DNA from: Bacteriovoracaceae bacterium
GTDB lineage: Bacteria; Bdellovibrionota; Bacteriovoracia; Bacteriovoracales; Bacteriovoracaceae
Direction of reading: 5' to 3'
Assembly: GCA_035576105.1 (NCBI GenBank)
Contig: DATLXA010000067.1
Span: 205,082 to 269,081 of the forward strand
DNA: 64,000 nucleotides
Shown here: positions 18,620-48,258 of the stretch, in pieces
Position numbering within the stretch: the first letter of the stretch is position 1
How the letters are laid out: the number at the start of each line of letters is the position of its first letter
Made by a program: the position numbers and the translations under genes
Notes under the pieces: model-generated
Seen by the model: only the letters and a program-made list of their open reading frames with translations
The model's database searches: none
Told to the model about the DNA's origin: nothing

Positions 18620-18730
18620 GATCCTCCACGGGAATGTCTACGGTGAGGCCGTATCTGACTTACCTCGAGAGGATCACAGTTGCGGGACAGTGCTGGATTC
18701 ACACCAGCTTCCGGGGACTCAGTCCGGGGA
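18620..18730 (-). promoter_or_regulatory. Cobalamin riboswitch (compact, class-II-like)
   Basis: Minus strand GGAA-GCTGGTG-TGAA-TCCAGC-ACTGTCCCGCAACTGTGA-short hairpin-AAGTCAGATAC (B12 box), then a hairpin covering the GGAGG SD. Confidence 0.9.
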
Positions 18731-44175: not shown

Positions 44176-45519
44176 ATGAGCAAAACGCCGAATGTACCGC
44201 TGAAGCAACATGTCCGGGCGTCCTTCCGGGACGCCGCTTACACCAATCTCAACATCGGGATGGTGGAAAGTTATTTCTGCGCTTTCATGTTGGCCCTCGG
44301 GATCTCCCAGGTCACTTCGGGTCTGGGCACCGTGATCCCGCAGTTCCTCGGGGTGATCTTCCAGCTGTTCTCCATCCGCGCCTTCTTCACCCGTTACACC
44401 CTCAAGAATCGGATCATACTTTTTCTCACTGTGCAGACCCTGACCATGGTTCCGCTGGTCTTGATCGGGTGGTTTAAAATTAACTCTGCTTTCCTTGTCA
44501 TCAGCTGCTTGGGACTGTATTGGGCGAGCCTTTTGTCACTGAATCCGCCGTGGAATAAGCTCATTGGCCATACAGTCCCCGTAAACTTCCGGCTCCGCTT
44601 CTTCTCTATCCGCAGTCAATTCGGTCAGCTCGCGGTGTTCATCGGTCTCATCACCAGCGGTTTCCTGCTCTACTGGGCCAAGGGTCTAAATCAGGAACTC
44701 GTCGTGTACGTCGGGATCTTGATCTTCGGCCTGGTCCTAAAATGCCTCTCGCTCTACGAAGTAAAAACAAACCATATTGATTACCCATTGTCCCCGGGGT
44801 CCGAGAACCGCATCCGGCTGCGGGACTTCGTTAAACGACTCCGGGGCACCGAGCAGGGCAAGCTTGTGACCTTCATGTTCCTCTTTTATACTTCGGTCCA
44901 TTTTTGTGCTCCGTATTTTAATCCGTTCATGCTTGGCGTGCTAAAGTTTAACTACCTCGAGTACATGGTGATCGTTTCGATTTCTTACTTTGGCCGGGTT
45001 TTCGTCTTCAAGGTCCTGCAGAGAACCGCCCGGGCCCGGCACGTGGACAAGATCCTGATCCTCTCGTCCATTGGAATAGCCACTTCCCCACTTTTATGGG
45101 CGTTCTCTCAGAAGTTTTCATGGTTGATGGGGGTCGAGTTCTTATCCGGATGTTATTGGGCAGGTTTTGAACTTGCCACTATCCTTCTTTATTACCAGAA
45201 GATCGACGATTCGGAGAGAACGAGCGTCATTACCTACATCACTTTTTTCAACACCACCGGGATGGTGATCGGATCCTTTCTAGGTGCCCTGTTCATGCGC
45301 TGGGTTCCTGTTTCCTGGAACGGGTACGTAGCACTTTTTGCCACTTCGACGTTTTGCAGAACGGTCGTCATCATCTTCGCGCCTCACATCCGCTTCAAAG
45401 GCCAGATCCCGAAGCTCATCAGCATTAACAGAGTCTTCAGCGTGAGACCACCGTTCGCAGTATTTTCCAGGCCATTCATTGGGAAGATGAGGAAGAAGAA
45501 GAAGGAAGAGGACAAATAA
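44176..45519 (+). CDS. MFS-type transporter
   Basis: About 12 TM helices in two halves, basic C-terminal tail. Confidence 0.8.
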   Translation: MSKTPNVPLKQHVRASFRDAAYTNLNIGMVESYFCAFMLALGISQVTSGLGTVIPQFLGVIFQLFSIRAFFTRYTLKNRIILFLTVQTLTMVPLVLIGWFKINSAFLVISCLGLYWASLLSLNPPWNKLIGHTVPVNFRLRFFSIRSQFGQLAVFIGLITSGFLLYWAKGLNQELVVYVGILIFGLVLKCLSLYEVKTNHIDYPLSPGSENRIRLRDFVKRLRGTEQGKLVTFMFLFYTSVHFCAPYFNPFMLGVLKFNYLEYMVIVSISYFGRVFVFKVLQRTARARHVDKILILSSIGIATSPLLWAFSQKFSWLMGVEFLSGCYWAGFELATILLYYQKIDDSERTSVITYITFFNTTGMVIGSFLGALFMRWVPVSWNGYVALFATSTFCRTVVIIFAPHIRFKGQIPKLISINRVFSVRPPFAVFSRPFIGKMRKKKKEEDK

Positions 45520-45546
45520 AAAAGCCCTCTTTCGAGGGCTTCTTTC
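45518..45546. terminator. Bidirectional terminator between the MFS gene and the H1-like gene
   Basis: A run-AAGCCCTC-tttc-GAGGGCTT-TCTTT. Confidence 0.8.
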
Positions 45547-45561
45547 AGAGCTAGAAGATGA

Positions 45562-45702
45562 TTACTTCTTCTTAGTTGCTGCTTTCTTAGTAGCTTTCTT
45601 AGAAGCTGTTTTCTTTGTAGCTTTCTTAGAACCAGCTTTCTTAGTTGCTGCTTTCTTAGTAGCTGTTTTCTTCGTTGCTTTCTTTGCTGCTTTCTTAGCC
45701 AT
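45562..45702 (-). CDS. 46-aa Lys/Ala/Thr-rich histone H1-like basic protein (not in ORF track)
   Basis: MAKKAAKKATKKTATKKAATKKAGSKKATKKTASKKATKKAATKKK; GGAGG SD; terminator directly downstream. Confidence 0.9.
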   Translation of the reverse strand: MAKKAAKKATKKTATKKAATKKAGSKKATKKTASKKATKKAATKKK

Positions 45703-45751
45703 GATTTCCTCCCAGGAAATAGGTTAACATTATTTGACCTTTCTTATTTTT

Positions 45752-45780
45752 AGCTTAATAAGCTTTTTGAATTAACGCAA
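45752..45780 (-). promoter_or_regulatory. Sigma-70 promoter with AT-rich UP-like tract for the H1-like gene
   Basis: TTGCGT-N17-TAAGCT preceded by A/T tracts. Confidence 0.55.
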
Positions 45781-45918
45781 ATAAAAAATACATATTTTAA
45801 TCAATCTCTACATTTTTTTTTTTTTTGGAATGTTTCGAAGGTTTTTTGGGCCTCACGCACTTCAAATGATGTTGGATCAATTGTCATGCATGAGGATCGG
45901 CAGTATGTGAAAAATAAT

Positions 45919-48258
45919 TTAGGAGAAAATGAAATCCAGCTCATCGTTTTTAACATCGACGACAACTTTGCCACCGCCTTCGAGCTTACCAAAGAGGATC
46001 TCATGGGCCAGCGGCTTCTTGATTTTCTCATTTATGAGTCTGGCGATGGGCCTCGCACCGAGCTTGTCATCGTAGCCATTCTTCGACAGCCAAGATTTCG
46101 CGGCAGCGGTGACGTCCATCTCGATCTTTTTATCGACCAGCTGGTTCTCGAGTTCCATCAGGAACTTGGTCACCACCATGTCGATGTTACTGGTATCGAG
46201 CTTGTTAAAGGCGATGATGGCGTCGAGCCGGTTCCGGAACTCCGGGGTGAAATAATTCTTTATGGCCTGGTCCCGCTTTATGGAATTATTTTCCCCTCCG
46301 CGCATCGACGCCGAGAGTCCGATGGAGCCGGCCTCCATCTCCTTGGCGCCGGCGTTCGAAGTCATGATCAGGATGACGTTCCGGAAATCCGACGATCGGC
46401 CGTTGGAATCAGACAGCGAGCCGTGGTCCATCACCTGGAGCAGGATATTGAAGATGTCCGGATGGGCCTTTTCGATCTCATCCAAGAGTAAAACGGTATA
46501 AGGATTTTTATGGATGGCGTCAGTTAAGACACCTCCCTGGTCAAATCCAACGTATCCCGGAGGGGCCCCGATGAGCTTCGATACGGTGTGCTTCTCCATG
46601 TACTCGGACATATCGATCCTGACGAAGTTAATGCCCATGATATGTGCCAATTGTTTGGCGAGTTCGGTTTTCCCGACCCCGGTCGGACCGGTGAAAAGGA
46701 AGTTTGCGATGGGCTTATCCAGATGCCCGAGCCCGGACCGGGAAAGGTAGATGGCATTGGAAACTTTTTCGATCGCGGGATTTTGGCCGTAGATCATCAT
46801 CTTCAGGTCCCGTTCAAGATAGCGAAGCTTCTCTTTCTCGTTGGTGGAGATCGACTTCTGCGGGATCCGGGCGATCTTGGAGACGATGAGTTCGATGTCC
46901 TGAAGGCTAACTTCGACCCCAACCTCCATGTTTGGCTTCAGCCGGATGTAGGCACCCACTTCGTCGATGACGTCGATGGCCTTGTCAGGGAGCTTGCGAT
47001 CAGGCACGTGCTTGTTGGAGAGCTCCACCGCCGCGCGGATGACATCGGAGGAGTATTTAACCTGATGGTGTTCCTCAAACTTTGACTTGATCCCATTGAG
47101 TATTAAGACCGAGTCCTCAACGGAAGGTTCGAGGACATCAATTTTCTGGAATCTGCGGTTCAGGGCCTGGTCTTTTTCGAAGAACTTGCGGTATTCGTCG
47201 AAGGTGGTGGAACCCATACAGCGGATCAGTCCCTTGGACAAGGCCGGCTTCAGTAGGTTCGAGGCATCGAGGCTCCCTCCGGAAGTCGCACCGGCACCGA
47301 TGATGGTATGGATCTCATCAATAAAAAGAATAGAACCTTCGGTTTCGTTAGCCTTCTCCAGCGCCTGGAGCACCAGCTTGAGCCTCTCTTCGAAGTCGCC
47401 CCGGAACTTGGTTCCGGCCAGCAAGGAGGCCATGTCCAGGCTGTAGACCGTGGTCTTACTAAGGGTGCTCGGCACTTGCTTTTCGACGATGGCCTTCGCT
47501 AGACCTTCGGCGATGGCCGTCTTTCCGACGCCAGAGTCTCCGACCAACAGGGGATTGTTTTTCCTTCTCCGGCAAAGTATCTGGATAATCCGCTGGATTT
47601 CCTCTTCTCGACCGATGATCGGGTCGATCTTCCCTTCTCTTGCGAGTTGGTTAAGGTTGGTGGTGAACTCGCTCAGGGCCTTTTCGTATTTTTCTTCTTT
47701 GCGGAATGTTTCGCCGTCGGTCTCTACCGTGGGATCCTCATCGCGGGCCGTCGGCTTGTCTGTGGAGTGGGCGATTTTCTCGACGATGTCAATCCGGTTC
47801 ACACCCTGCTTCTCAAGGAAGTAGGTCGCGTGGGACTCTTTCTCGCTGAACATCGCCACCAGGAGATTGATGGCCTGGATGGATTTTTTTCCGGAGCTCT
47901 GGATGTGGATGGCCGCCCGTTGGATGACCCGCTGGAGGCTTAGAGAAATCTCCGGCTGGTAGAGGATTCCGTTCTCCCGGGCGATCTCCCGGAGCTGGTC
48001 GTTGCCGAACTGCTTCCGGTTGAGGCTCTGGATCTCTTCTTCGCTCAAGAGTGAGAAGTTCGAGTTCTCACCGATGAAGCCCGCGAGGTCCCGCTTGAGG
48101 TCACTGATGTTGGCACCGCAGTCCAGTAGGATTTCGCTCACCGTCTCGTCGTCGAGCATCGAAAGCAACACGTTCTCCATGGTGAGGAACTCGTGGCGTT
48201 TTTCATTGGCGCGTTTAATGGCTTTATTGAGTATCTGTTCTAATTTTTGGCTAATCAT
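45919..48258 (-). CDS. clpA: ATP-dependent Clp protease ATP-binding subunit ClpA
   Basis: Clp-N domain, GDSGVGKT, FIDEIH, no middle coiled coil, GPTGVGKT, LLDEIEKAHP; downstream of clpS. Confidence 0.96.
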   Translation of the reverse strand: MISQKLEQILNKAIKRANEKRHEFLTMENVLLSMLDDETVSEILLDCGANISDLKRDLAGFIGENSNFSLLSEEEIQSLNRKQFGNDQLREIARENGILYQPEISLSLQRVIQRAAIHIQSSGKKSIQAINLLVAMFSEKESHATYFLEKQGVNRIDIVEKIAHSTDKPTARDEDPTVETDGETFRKEEKYEKALSEFTTNLNQLAREGKIDPIIGREEEIQRIIQILCRRRKNNPLLVGDSGVGKTAIAEGLAKAIVEKQVPSTLSKTTVYSLDMASLLAGTKFRGDFEERLKLVLQALEKANETEGSILFIDEIHTIIGAGATSGGSLDASNLLKPALSKGLIRCMGSTTFDEYRKFFEKDQALNRRFQKIDVLEPSVEDSVLILNGIKSKFEEHHQVKYSSDVIRAAVELSNKHVPDRKLPDKAIDVIDEVGAYIRLKPNMEVGVEVSLQDIELIVSKIARIPQKSISTNEKEKLRYLERDLKMMIYGQNPAIEKVSNAIYLSRSGLGHLDKPIANFLFTGPTGVGKTELAKQLAHIMGINFVRIDMSEYMEKHTVSKLIGAPPGYVGFDQGGVLTDAIHKNPYTVLLLDEIEKAHPDIFNILLQVMDHGSLSDSNGRSSDFRNVILIMTSNAGAKEMEAGSIGLSASMRGGENNSIKRDQAIKNYFTPEFRNRLDAIIAFNKLDTSNIDMVVTKFLMELENQLVDKKIEMDVTAAAKSWLSKNGYDDKLGARPIARLINEKIKKPLAHEILFGKLEGGGKVVVDVKNDELDFIFS

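What the first reader, a model, noticed from the sequence alone, without database searches (positions are those of the whole stretch)
45562..45702. Unannotated 46-aa histone-H1-like KKAT-repeat protein with strong expression signals
Seen: a sub-60-aa ORF missed by the track, made almost entirely of K/A/T/S (KKA[A/T]T-type repeats), with a GGAGG SD, TTGCGT-N17-TAAGCT promoter, AT-rich upstream tract and its own terminator. A weaker sigma-28-like site, TAAA-N16-GCCGATCC (45921-45894), lies further upstream. Established: Lys/Ala-repeat proteins (Chlamydia Hc1/Hc2, mycobacterial HupB tail, Pseudomonas AlgP repeats) bind or condense DNA, and attack-phase Bdellovibrio nucleoids are highly compact. 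Inference: a minimal nucleoid-condensing peptide of a predator, possibly phase-regulated.
Basis: partly seen in the sequence, partly recalled or inferred. Interest (0 to 1): 0.7.

Follow-up and report, generated by a model that had tools for sequence, protein, structure and literature searches.

The report
Tiny lysine-rich protein of predatory bacteria
A real, conserved but mostly unannotated gene downstream of clpA in predatory Bacteriovoracaceae (with a counterpart in Bdellovibrio bacteriovorus) encodes a 46-residue peptide that is half lysine, and it is a plausible but untested candidate for the unknown factor that packs these predators' DNA so tightly.

Summary
Window 45562-45702 (-) is a 46-aa ORF (21 Lys, 13 Ala, 8 Thr, net charge about +20) with GGAGG 5 nt before the ATG, TTGCGT-N17-TAAGCT upstream and an intrinsic terminator.

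It is a real gene. All 7 relatives fetched through ClpA alone (84-93% identity) carry an MAKKA... ORF in the same place. A metagenome scan added about 25 more clpA-linked loci. ORF lengths run from 23 to 109 aa, always in frame, and substitutions concentrate at third codon positions (58/40/196). The promoter hexamers, leader and Shine-Dalgarno site are invariant, and the terminator shows compensatory changes. Metatranscriptome contigs cover the gene in relatives but not its flanks.

A second group with the same N-terminus, but a different leader and context, occurs in Bdellovibrio. It includes a 36-aa ORF in B. bacteriovorus CP168967.1.

By profile the peptide is not a member of Hc1, Hc2 or the Burkholderia H1-like family; it resembles them only in composition. 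DNA binding and nucleoid condensation are inferred, not shown. LysC/trypsin would cut the peptide into fragments of at most 4 residues, so the published nucleoid proteomics could not have detected it.

The sigma-28-like motif is conserved with fixed spacing. However, it overlaps the clpA stop codon and the foot of a conserved hairpin.

Novelty: new variant of a known kind. Interest 0.65.

The parts
45562..45702 (-). 46-aa Lys/Ala/Thr-repeat microprotein ORF (MAKKAAKKATKK...KKK), including the stop codon
   Evidence: An orthologous in-frame ORF of 23-109 aa is present in all clpA-linked relatives. Differences by codon position are 58/40/196.
45708..45712 (-). Shine-Dalgarno GGAGG, 5 nt upstream of the ATG, inside the invariant block ATTTCCTGGGAGGAAAT (45720-45704)
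   Evidence: Invariant in 23 distinct relatives. The block is a 6-7 bp inverted repeat with the SD in its loop and 3' arm. It is predicted to fold, but the leader as a whole is not unusually stable (z = 0.39).
45713..45751 (-). Conserved 5' leader, including the near-invariant TAAGAAAGGTCAA
   Evidence: Alignment A2. The leader is about as conserved as the promoter hexamers. Its function is unknown.
45752..45757 (-). -10-like hexamer TAAGCT
   Evidence: TAAGCT in most relatives and TATGCT in two (L082, L107). The 17-nt spacing to the -35 is invariant while the spacer sequence varies. Not called by the generic consensus scan.
45775..45780 (-). -35-like hexamer TTGCGT, within the invariant TTTGCGTTA
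45781..45840 (-). A/T-rich tract upstream of the -35 (GTATTTTTTA and an A13 run); UP-element-like
   Evidence: The T6 tract next to the -35 and an A run of about 8-13 further upstream are conserved in relatives.
45518..45545 (-). Intrinsic terminator (AAGAAGCCCTC-GAAA-GAGGGCTTTTTT). It is flanked by an A run and a T run, so it probably also terminates the convergent MFS gene.
   Evidence: RNAalifold on 24 relatives gives 10 pairs, 5 with both sides changed and pairing kept.
45894..45921 (-). Sigma-28 (FliA)-like motif TAAA-N16-GCCGATCC. The TAA is the clpA stop codon.
   Evidence: There are always 17 nt of variable sequence between TAAA and CCGAT in every group-1 relative with enough upstream sequence. 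B. bacteriovorus attack-phase consensus: TTAAG-N16-CCGATA (PMC3627812). Promoter activity was not tested.
45851..45895 (-). Conserved long hairpin (CCTCATGCAT ... GTGCGTGAGG) between clpA and the microprotein gene, followed by an A run
   Evidence: Folds at -16 to -30 kcal/mol in all 23 relatives. Compensatory changes include ATGCAT/ATGCAT to ATCCAT/ATGGAT in L115 and CCTCATG/CATGAGG to CTTCATG/CATGAAG in L082. The inner stems covary.

Best explanation
Window 45562-45702 (-) is a genuine, independently transcribed, monocistronic gene for a 46-residue polycationic microprotein. The peptide has about 21 positive charges, no acidic, aromatic or large hydrophobic residues, and KK doublets every 4-5 residues.

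Shown:
- The gene, its reading frame, its SD/ATG, its promoter-like hexamers and its terminator are conserved in relatives whose ClpA is 74-93% identical. Micro-ORFs also follow clpA, with different leaders, in two more distant loci (ClpA 74% and 59%).
- Repeat number changes freely (23-109 aa), but only in frame.
- Relatives' copies are present in metatranscriptomes while their flanking genes are not.

Inferred:
- The peptide is abundant and disordered when free, with high helix propensity. It acts as a sequence-non-specific counter-ion for nucleic acid.
- The most likely target is chromosomal DNA, where it would neutralise phosphate charge and help condense the nucleoid, as the histone H1 C-terminal tail, chlamydial Hc1/Hc2, Coxiella Hq1/ScvA and protamines do.
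- Function would depend on charge and length rather than exact sequence, which would explain the rapid gain and loss of repeats.
- A proximal sigma-70-type promoter would give strong expression. The conserved FliA-like motif upstream may add attack-phase input.

My estimates: real translated gene about 0.9; nucleic-acid or polyanion binding about 0.8; nucleoid compaction as the main role about 0.45.
For: - ORF, SD and terminator are present.
- Unbiased conservation: 7 of 7 loci fetched through ClpA alone carry the ORF, including two that lack the MFS neighbour.
- A metagenome pattern scan gave 63 loci. Thirty of them, plus the window, carry the group-1 leader, with 23 distinct ORF sequences of 30-109 aa, all in frame. 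Two further clpA-linked loci have other leaders and ORFs of 23-25 aa.
- Differences by codon position are 58/40/196, and the alternative sense frame acquires stops in relatives.
- The -35, -10, leader and SD are invariant or nearly so, with variable spacers.
- The terminator shows covariation.
- No such ORF occurs in 80 unrelated clpA loci.
- RNA: contigs from river and soil metatranscriptomes cover the leader and ORF of the 33-aa orthologue L109, but not the clpA 3' end or the MFS gene. For the Bdellovibrio-type copies, contigs span leader, ORF and terminator only.
- Composition: 46% Lys, pI 11.3, charge +20.5.
- AlphaFold2 on the single sequence predicts one helix, residues 3-45, mean pLDDT 86.
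- The only profile resemblances are to H1-like DNA-binding families.
- Lys/Ala-repeat tails bind DNA, and their repeat number varies between isolates in AlgP (PMC9239181). [quoted passage not shown]
- The attack-phase B. bacteriovorus nucleoid is exceptionally compact and the cause is still open. The published list of nucleoid-associated proteins contains no such peptide (bioRxiv 10.1101/2025.09.24.678257).
- Nucleoid proteomics used LysC/trypsin (PMC10627809). That digestion would cut this peptide into fragments of 1-4 residues.
Against: - There is no direct evidence of translation, abundance, DNA binding or localisation.
- No RNA data exist for the window's own sequence.
- The RNA evidence for relatives comes from assembled contigs. 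These give neither transcription start sites nor reliable expression levels.
- The profile hits are far below family thresholds and reflect composition.
- A peptide this cationic would bind RNA, ribosomes, polyphosphate or membranes as readily as DNA.
- The wide length variation (23-109 aa) could also indicate weak constraint.
- The sigma-70-like hexamers match the consensus at only 6 of 12 positions.
- The helix prediction was made without an alignment.
- In B. bacteriovorus, time-course RNA-seq named DpsB as the only annotated nucleoid-associated protein up-regulated in attack phase. This unannotated locus was not examined there.
Confidence: 0.5

Rival explanations
1. The peptide is made, but its main partner is not DNA. 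It could be a ribosome- or RNA-associated small basic protein or RNA chaperone. Alternatively it could be a polyphosphate-granule protein that tethers or coacervates polyP, as the AlgP tail does.
For: The same charge and composition arguments apply. The AlgP KPAA tail associates with polyP granules as well as DNA (PMC9239181). The strongly conserved leader and SD region is reminiscent of highly expressed, autoregulated genes for translation-apparatus proteins (my own knowledge).
Against: Ribosomal and ribosome-bound small proteins have fixed lengths and conserved sequences. Here length varies from 23 to 109 aa and only composition is conserved. There is no linkage to ribosomal, ppk or ppx genes in either genomic context.
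Confidence: 0.2
2. It is a prey-directed or envelope-active cationic peptide, delivered or released during predation. It would be polylysine-like, either permeabilising the prey or binding prey DNA.
For: The organisms are obligate predators. Highly cationic peptides can be antimicrobial or cell-penetrating (my own knowledge).
Against: The peptide has no signal peptide, no hydrophobic or amphipathic face with large side chains, and no Cys or Gly maturation motifs. No transporter, immunity or processing genes are nearby. The neighbours are clpS-clpA, MFS and DUF502 in one lineage, and tad-like and mla genes in the other, with no shared partner.
Confidence: 0.07
3. Its function is tied to ClpS-ClpA: a ClpAP substrate, regulator or adaptor, with the adjacency to clpA being functional.
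For: The micro-ORF follows clpA in every Bacteriovoracaceae-like locus seen, down to 59% ClpA identity. It stays there even where the downstream MFS gene is lost.
Against: In Bdellovibrio the equivalent micro-ORF is not next to clpA. It has its own promoter-like elements and terminator, and is separated from clpA by a strong hairpin. Nothing in the sequence resembles ClpS or known adaptors. Being a ClpAP substrate is compatible with the main explanation rather than a true rival to it.
Confidence: 0.06
4. The ORF is not translated. The locus is either a small RNA or a tandem DNA repeat that merely stays open because AAR/GCN repeats contain no stop codons.
For: The sequence is a tandem repeat. 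Both antisense frames without stops are open in all relatives, and the +1 sense frame is open in the window. There is no proteomic evidence.
Against: The ATG and a GGAGG SD at optimal spacing are invariant. Third-position changes dominate in this frame (58/40/196), and those same changes would be non-synonymous on the antisense strand. The +1 sense frame gains stops in relatives. All length changes are multiples of 3 across lengths of 23-109 aa. Openness of the antisense frames is an arithmetic consequence of K/A/T/V codons.
Confidence: 0.05
5. It is a lysine-codon-rich leader peptide of a transcription attenuator that senses lysyl-tRNA.
For: The ORF is short, 46% Lys codons, and is followed immediately by a terminator hairpin.
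Against: No gene follows on the same strand. The next gene is convergent (MFS, 44176-45519 +) or, in some relatives, DUF502 after the terminator with no antiterminator alternative. A length varying from 23 to 109 codons is incompatible with a tuned attenuator.
Confidence: 0.02

Closest known systems
Chlamydial histone H1-like proteins Hc1 (HctA, Pfam PF07432) and Hc2 (HctB, Pfam PF07382 / NCBIfam NF038052)
   Same: Both are Lys/Ala-rich, very basic, low-complexity bacterial proteins. Hc1 and Hc2 condense the nucleoid of a non-replicating, infectious developmental form, and hctB is transcribed by sigma-28 RNA polymerase (my own knowledge). The present gene has a conserved sigma-28-like motif upstream. 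HC2 is the only Pfam model that gives even a weak hit to a long relative (E = 0.64).
   Different: Scores are far below threshold (10.5 versus 40 bits; NF038052 7 versus 135 bits). There is no hit at all for the 46-aa protein. It is 3-5 times shorter, lacks the conserved Hc1 N-terminal domain, and comes from a different phylum. No functional data exist.
C-terminal domain of eukaryotic linker histone H1, and the tail-only H1 of kinetoplastids
   Same: About 40-50% Lys plus Ala/Thr/Ser, no acidic residues, disordered when free and helical on DNA (my own knowledge). The helix propensity is echoed by the AlphaFold2 prediction. The expected action is charge neutralisation of DNA.
   Different: There is no winged-helix globular domain (no PF00538 hit), no proline and no S/TPKK motifs. 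It would have no nucleosome to bind. Common ancestry cannot be argued from composition alone.
Pseudomonas AlgP / PhaF KPAA-repeat tails
   Same: Both are tandem 4-5-residue Lys/Ala repeats. AlgP peptides bind DNA, and its repeat number changes between isolates (PMC9239181). Here orthologues range from 23 to 109 aa.
   Different: The AlgP repeat is KPAA (one Lys, one Pro per unit) attached to a 124-aa helical N-terminal domain, and AlgP is 352 aa. Here the unit is KKA(T/A/V) with two Lys and no Pro, and there is no other domain.
Coxiella burnetii ScvA and Hq1
   Same: They are small basic DNA-binding proteins enriched in the non-replicating small-cell variant with condensed chromatin (PMC4766238). 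ScvA is about 30 residues (my own knowledge). This is the closest precedent for a stand-alone peptide-sized chromatin protein linked to a developmental stage.
   Different: ScvA is Arg/Gln-rich rather than a Lys/Ala repeat (my own knowledge). The lineage is unrelated.
Burkholderia-type histone H1-like DNA-binding protein (NCBIfam NF038053)
   Same: It gives the best-scoring profile for both the window protein (E = 1.6) and its 109-aa relative (E = 0.03). The match lies in the K/A repeat region.
   Different: Scores are 9-14.6 bits against an 80-bit cutoff. The model is 195 positions long, and only its low-complexity part aligns.
Bdellovibrionota histone-fold proteins (HBb/Bd0055, Bd3044)
   Same: Both are small, abundant chromatin proteins of the same predatory phylum, and both bear on the same open question of attack-phase compaction (PMC10627809; bioRxiv 10.1101/2025.09.24.678257).
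   Different: Bd0055 has a histone fold with a conserved sequence. The present peptide has no fold-family match and is a pure repeat. The two would be partners or parallel factors, not homologues.

Membership tests
Protein-coding gene (as opposed to a chance ORF or non-coding repeat) | Start codon and ribosome-binding site conserved in relatives | tested here: met
   ATG and GGAGG at 5-nt spacing are invariant in 23 distinct upstream sequences and in the 7 ClpA-selected loci.
Protein-coding gene (as opposed to a chance ORF or non-coding repeat) | Frame preserved through indels, and substitutions biased to third codon positions | tested here: met
   ORF lengths are 23-109 aa, always in frame. 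Differences by codon position are 58/40/196, with 164 synonymous against 98 non-synonymous codon changes. The +1 sense frame acquires stops in relatives.
Protein-coding gene (as opposed to a chance ORF or non-coding repeat) | Transcribed and translated | tested here: inconclusive
   Metatranscriptome contigs cover orthologues and Bdellovibrio-type copies. None covers the window's own sequence. Translation cannot be tested with these tools.
Eukaryotic linker histone H1/H5 (Pfam PF00538) | Winged-helix globular domain | tested here: not met
   No Pfam hit even at E <= 10. At 46 aa, predicted as a single helix, there is no room for the domain.
Eukaryotic linker histone H1/H5 (Pfam PF00538) | Lys/Ala/Ser/Thr/Pro-rich basic tail with S/TPKK-type motifs | tested here: inconclusive
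   Lys 46%, Ala 28%, Thr/Ser 22% and no acidic residues fit the tail composition. There is no Pro and no S/TPKK motif.
Chlamydial Hc1 (PF07432) / Hc2 (PF07382, NF038052) | Profile match at or above the curated threshold | tested here: not met
   Window protein: no hit. The 109-aa relative scores 10.5 bits on HC2 against a 40-bit cutoff, and 7.1 bits on NF038052 against 135.
Chlamydial Hc1 (PF07432) / Hc2 (PF07382, NF038052) | Late-stage expression (sigma-28-dependent for hctB) and nucleoid condensation on expression | not testable with these tools
   Only a conserved sigma-28-like motif can be reported. There are no expression-phase or condensation data.
Burkholderia-type H1-like DNA-binding protein (NF038053, equivalog) | Profile match at or above 80 bits over the 195-position model | tested here: not met
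   9 bits (E = 1.6) for the window protein. 14.6 bits (E = 0.03) for the 109-aa relative.
AlgP/PhaF KPAA-repeat proteins | KPAA (Pro-containing) tandem repeats attached to a structured N-terminal domain | tested here: not met
   Read directly from the sequence: the unit is KKA(T/A/V), there are 0 Pro in the window protein, and no further domain is present. AlgP features are taken from PMC9239181.
Bacterial/archaeal histone fold (HBb/Bd0055 type) | Histone-fold domain (helix-loop-helix-loop-helix) | tested here: not met
   No Pfam hit, no PDB sequence hit, and a predicted single uninterrupted helix.
Coxiella ScvA/Hq1 small basic DNA-binding proteins | Sequence similarity; enrichment in the condensed developmental form; DNA binding | not tested
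   No reference sequences were available in the tools. The resemblance is functional and size-based only (PMC4766238; my own knowledge).
Amino-acid-sensing leader peptide / attenuator | Co-oriented regulated gene downstream of the terminator, with an alternative antiterminator | tested here: not met
   The next gene is convergent or lies beyond a canonical terminator. ORF length varies from 23 to 109 codons.
FliA (sigma-28) promoter, B. bacteriovorus attack-phase type TTAAG-N16-CCGATA | -35 and -10 elements at N16 spacing, conserved, with a transcription start just downstream | tested here: inconclusive
   TAAAt-N16-CCGATC gives 3/5 and 5/6 matches with exact spacing. It is conserved in all group-1 relatives with variable spacers (consensus from PMC3627812). 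However, the -35 is the clpA stop codon, the -10 abuts or enters a conserved hairpin, and no start-site data exist.

The most novel reading that the evidence does not exclude
These KKA(T/A/V)-repeat microproteins are clpA-linked in Bacteriovoracaceae and tad/mla-linked in Bdellovibrio, including B. bacteriovorus. They would be the missing protamine-like factor behind the exceptional hyper-compaction of the attack-phase nucleoid in Bdellovibrionota. On this reading they are very abundant but invisible to tryptic proteomics and to annotation. They would be switched on late in growth or in attack phase, partly through FliA. They would be removed when growth resumes in the prey, possibly by ClpAP, whose gene they follow.
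Probability: 0.15. Interest if true: 0.85.

Novelty: new variant of a known kind. Interest (0 to 1): 0.65.

Why it matters
Attack-phase Bdellovibrio cells have one of the most compact nucleoids known. It excludes ribosomes and even freely diffusing proteins. A 2025 preprint (10.1101/2025.09.24.678257) shows that this compaction does not depend on transcription or translation. [quoted passage not shown]

A conserved peptide carrying about +20 charge, with strong expression signals, is an obvious candidate. It is also exactly the kind of product that standard methods miss. It is too short and too low in complexity for gene callers and protein databases: it is absent from a 15-billion-sequence collection and is annotated in only some assemblies. 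LysC/trypsin digestion would also destroy it.

Because a 36-aa counterpart sits in the genetically tractable B. bacteriovorus, the idea can be tested directly. Existing time-course RNA-seq can be re-read at one locus. Top-down mass spectrometry, a deletion mutant and assays with synthetic peptide would follow.

More generally, this extends bacterial H1-like proteins down to a stand-alone tail of 23-50 residues. It is also a reminder that low-complexity micro-ORFs can be real genes.

Tried and rejected
- phmmer of the peptide against 5.8 billion proteins found 6903 word-sharing candidates, but none scored. I attribute this to HMMER's composition correction. For the same reason I did not spend the representative-library job.
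- Exact-sequence look-ups of the window peptide and eight orthologues all returned 'not in the collection'. No public names could therefore be retrieved.
- The single genome-contig scan, run with full-length ClpA, was saturated by universal AAA+ motifs. It returned only distant ClpAs (at most 62% identity). Those loci were reused as a negative control.
- phmmer against PDB sequences found nothing. A fold search on a single predicted helix would be meaningless and was not run.
- Laying soil metatranscriptomes on the window itself gave only 36-44-nt partial matches to the repeat or to conserved clpA words.
- I tried to read transcription start sites from the ends of Logan contigs. Contigs start upstream of the proposed -35 as often as downstream, and their ends probably reflect assembly branch points. 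No start site is claimed.
- Four pure-culture transcriptome runs of a coded organism gave no usable information on growth phase.
L106, which has the identical peptide, was used instead.
- Folding the leader: the SD hairpin is predicted, but the leader is not more stable than shuffled sequences (z = 0.39).
- A full-text search for the peptide strings found 0 papers. Papers on Bacteriovorax and Bdellovibrio chromatin do not mention any H1-like or Lys-rich microprotein.
- The leader-peptide/attenuator idea and an antisense-ORF reading were considered and rejected. See the rival explanations.
Full report
**1. What is at the coordinates**

The minus strand of window 45562-45702 carries a 46-codon ORF, MAKKAAKKATKKTATKKAATKKAGSKKATKKTASKKATKKAATKKK.
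- It has 21 Lys, 13 Ala, 8 Thr, 2 Ser and 1 Gly. It has no acidic, aromatic or large hydrophobic residue. Its pI is 11.3 and its net charge about +20.5.
- KK doublets recur every 4 or 5 residues.
- Among 251 ATG-started ORFs of at least 40 aa in the window, its Lys fraction (0.457) is the maximum. The runner-up is 0.213, and the mean is 0.051 (sd 0.044).
- The DNA is a degenerate tandem repeat.
- GGAGG lies 5 nt before the ATG.
- TTGCGT (45780-45775), a 17-nt spacer and TAAGCT (45757-45752) lie upstream, preceded by an A/T-rich tract.
- A 12-pair hairpin plus T run (45545-45518) follows the stop codon.
- The generic sigma-70 scan does not call the promoter (6/12 matches).
- The gene lies between clpA (45919-48258, -) and a convergent MFS transporter gene (44176-45519, +).

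**2. Organism**

ClpA of the window has many relatives at 83-93% identity. Their NCBI names are 'Bacteriovoracaceae bacterium' or 'Bacteriovoracia bacterium'. The window's own sequence is held almost completely by one soil-metagenome run and by no RNA run. The predator assignment is therefore supported.

**3. Is it a gene?**

Seven loci were fetched purely by their ClpA protein: L081-L083 and L150-L153, with ClpA 84-93% identical.
- All seven have an MAKKA... ORF of 30-51 aa at the same place.
- This includes two loci in which the MFS gene is missing and DUF502 follows instead.

A metagenome scan for SD-N5-ATG plus MAKKA[A/T]KKA returned 63 loci.
- Thirty of them, plus the window, carry the same leader.
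- Where the contig is long enough, they have clpA upstream and/or the MFS gene downstream.
- They hold 23 distinct ORF sequences of 30-109 aa.
- Two further clpA-linked loci (L093, ClpA 74%; L096, ClpA 59%) have different leaders and ORFs of 25 and 23 aa.

All length differences are in frame. In equal-length pairs, the differences fall 58/40/196 on codon positions 1/2/3. The +1 sense frame acquires stop codons in relatives. The two open antisense frames are an arithmetic consequence of AAR/GCN/ACN/GTN codons and have no conserved start.

In an alignment of 23 distinct upstream regions:
- The -35 block TTTGCGTTA is invariant.
- The -10 TAAGCT (TATGCT in two), most of the leader (for example TAAGAAAGGTCAA) and the block ATTTCCTGGGAGGAAAT-N-ATG are invariant or nearly so.
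- The promoter spacer and the upstream sequence vary.

The terminator keeps its stem through compensatory changes in 5 of 10 pairs. Eighty unrelated clpA loci (681 kb) contain no comparable micro-ORF.

I conclude that this is a real, selected, independently expressed protein-coding gene (about 0.9).

**4. Transcription**

Nothing can be said for the window's own sequence.

For L109, a 33-aa orthologue common in freshwater, contigs from river and soil metatranscriptomes cover the leader and ORF: 147-nt and 109-nt contigs with 3 mismatches each, and a 238-nt contig of which 184 nt match with 8 mismatches. The clpA 3' end and the MFS gene in the same stretch are not covered.

These contigs begin upstream of the proposed -35. 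Either some transcripts start further upstream, or the contig ends are assembly artefacts. No start site can be claimed.

**5. A second group, in Bdellovibrio**

Twelve loci from the scan carry micro-ORFs of 26-40 aa with the same N-terminus but a different setting. Eleven of them show the features below in full; L144 was assigned on its leader alone.
- They have a different, equally conserved upstream region: TTGACG-N17-AAGACT, then a CAA-repeat leader, then TAGGAGGAGCAC-ATG.
- They have their own terminator.
- Their genomic context is different: divergent from tad-like membrane protein genes and next to mlaD/mlaE.

The MlaD neighbour is 87% identical to B. bacteriovorus MlaD. B. bacteriovorus CP168967.1 carries MAKKAAKKATKKAAKKTTKKAAKKTTKKATKKASKK at 3,634,316-3,634,426. 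The gene is called in two assemblies and not in this one.

RNA contigs cover just leader, ORF and terminator at two such loci. Examples are a 230-nt contig with one mismatch, and a contig ending at the terminator T run. The flanks are not covered.

Because the scan pattern fixed the N-terminus, homology between the two groups cannot be separated from convergence. Functionally they are the same kind of product.

**6. What the protein resembles, and what it is not**
- Pfam finds nothing for the 46-aa protein.
- NCBIfam gives only NF038053, the Burkholderia histone H1-like DNA-binding protein, at E = 1.6 and 9 bits against an 80-bit cutoff.
- The 109-aa orthologue gives HC2 (PF07382) at E = 0.64, NF038053 at E = 0.03 and NF038052 (Hc2) at E = 5.7. 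All are far below threshold.
- PDB sequences give nothing.
- AlphaFold2 without an alignment predicts one continuous helix, residues 3-45, with mean pLDDT 86. I take this only as high helix propensity.

The peptide therefore works like, but is not a demonstrable member of, the H1-like families. It has no globular or anchoring domain and no proline, and its repeat unit, KKA(T/A/V), differs from AlgP's KPAA (PMC9239181).

**7. Mechanism proposed**

Established knowledge:
- Lys/Ala-rich tails (H1 C-terminal domain, Hc1/Hc2, AlgP/PhaF peptides) bind DNA without sequence specificity and neutralise its charge.
- The AlgP repeat number varies between isolates.

Inference: this microprotein is an abundant polycation that coats nucleic acid, most probably the chromosome, and promotes compaction. 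Its function depends on charge and length, which would explain unconstrained in-frame gain and loss of repeats.

The strongest alternative is that RNA, ribosomes or polyphosphate are the real partners (0.2). The variable length argues against a defined ribosomal site. Other rivals are listed with their tests: a prey-directed peptide, a ClpA-related role, a non-coding locus and an attenuator.

**8. The sigma-28-like site**

In every group-1 relative with enough upstream sequence, the clpA stop TAA-A is followed by exactly 17 variable nucleotides and then CCGATC (one locus has CTGATC). Read as TAAAt-N16-CCGATC, this has the same spacing as the B. bacteriovorus attack-phase FliA consensus TTAAG-N16-CCGATA, which is found in 92 of 140 attack-phase promoters (PMC3627812).

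Two caveats apply.
- The -35 is the stop codon of clpA.
- CCGATC abuts a long hairpin (45895-45851 in the window). In several relatives it is part of that hairpin. The hairpin folds at -16 to -30 kcal/mol in all 23 sequences and shows clear compensatory changes. It is followed by an A run rather than a T run in all but one sequence.

The element is certainly under selection. It remains open whether it is a FliA promoter for the microprotein gene, the 3' structure of the clpSA transcript, or both.

**9. Relation to the literature**

No paper in the searchable library contains the peptide strings. Papers on Bacteriovorax and Bdellovibrio chromatin do not mention an H1-like or Lys-rich microprotein.

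The 2025 preprint on the B. bacteriovorus life cycle describes extreme compaction in non-replicating stages that is independent of transcription and translation. It lists the known nucleoid proteins and states that additional factors may be needed.

The nucleoid proteomics of Hocher et al. used LysC/trypsin and a 350/400-1,800 m/z window with +1 ions rejected. This peptide would yield only K, AAK, ATK, MAK, AATK, TATK, AGSK and TASK. Its absence from those data is therefore uninformative.

**10. Verdict**

It is a new variant of a known kind, namely a stand-alone, peptide-sized, tail-only H1-like protein. Its interest lies mainly in making a current open question directly testable in a tractable model organism.

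Noticed in passing
window 45851-45895 (-); same position in L081-L083, L086-L143, L150-L153: A long, strongly conserved hairpin lies immediately after clpA (CCTCATGCAT...ATGCATGAGG, with covarying inner stems, -16 to -30 kcal/mol). It is followed by an A run rather than a T run in all but one relative (L121). It is not a canonical terminator on either strand. It may be the clpSA mRNA 3' structure or a protein-binding site.
   Followed up: partly
L149 5330-5440 (-) = CP168967.1 3,634,316-3,634,426 (+); also L147, L148, L106, L138, L085: Bdellovibrio bacteriovorus and other Bdellovibrio carry a 36-40-aa MAKKAAKKATKK... micro-ORF between tad-like membrane protein genes and an outer-membrane/mlaD-mlaE cluster. 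It has its own conserved TTGACG promoter-like box, a CAA-repeat leader, a TAGGAGGA SD and a terminator. It is called as a gene in some assemblies and not in others.
   Followed up: partly
L087, L100, L101, L114, L132, L145, L146 (and L095, truncated): These loci encode proteins with the same MAKKATKKA... Lys/Ala/Pro-rich N-terminal tail fused to a SWIB/MDM2 domain (PF02201, E = 2.6e-29). This is a different way of deploying the same kind of tail. The organisms were not identified.
   Followed up: partly
L116, L119 (350-419 aa) and L118, L126 (135 aa): Other proteins start with MAKKA[A/T]KKA and have long Lys/Ala/Ser/Thr-rich regions. One type is fused to a globular C-terminal part and the other to a Gly/Ser/Arg-rich tail. 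Neither was characterised.
   Followed up: no
run X34 (coded organism G, pure-culture transcriptome), laid on L106 4499-4531: A 456-nt RNA contig at very high word depth (about 1079) matches only the first codons of the micro-ORF, then continues as another Lys/Ala-rich coding sequence (…PKKAVAKKAA…). That organism therefore appears to express a further K/A-rich gene very strongly.
   Followed up: no
window 45704-45720 (-): The invariant block ATTTCCTGGGAGGAAAT is a perfect 6-bp inverted repeat that places GGA/GGAGG in the loop and 3' arm. This resembles a CsrA-type binding hairpin or a weak SD-sequestering stem. It shows no variation, so covariation could not be tested, and the leader's folding energy is unremarkable (z = 0.39).
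   Followed up: partly
window 45697-45732 (-): In the window and a few relatives, an upstream ATG (45732-45730) opens an 11-codon ORF (MLTYFLGGNHG) whose stop codon overlaps codons 2-3 of the main ORF. The upstream ATG is absent from most relatives, so it is probably fortuitous.
   Followed up: partly
L108, L124, L131: A 36-aa Lys-rich micro-ORF (MAKKATKKAVKKTVKKAAKSAVKKTAKKTKKVAKKK) sits in a G+C-rich, unrelated context without an obvious intrinsic terminator. Similar micro-ORFs may therefore exist outside Bdellovibrionota.
   Followed up: no
window 18651-18712 (-): A cobalamin riboswitch aptamer (Rfam RF00174, 37 bits, above the gathering score). It is unrelated to the finding.
   Followed up: no
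window 45482-45512: A GAA/GAG-rich short tandem repeat encodes the Lys/Glu-rich C-terminal tail of the convergent MFS protein (...GKMRKKKKEEDK). It overlaps the region just beyond the shared terminator.
   Followed up: no
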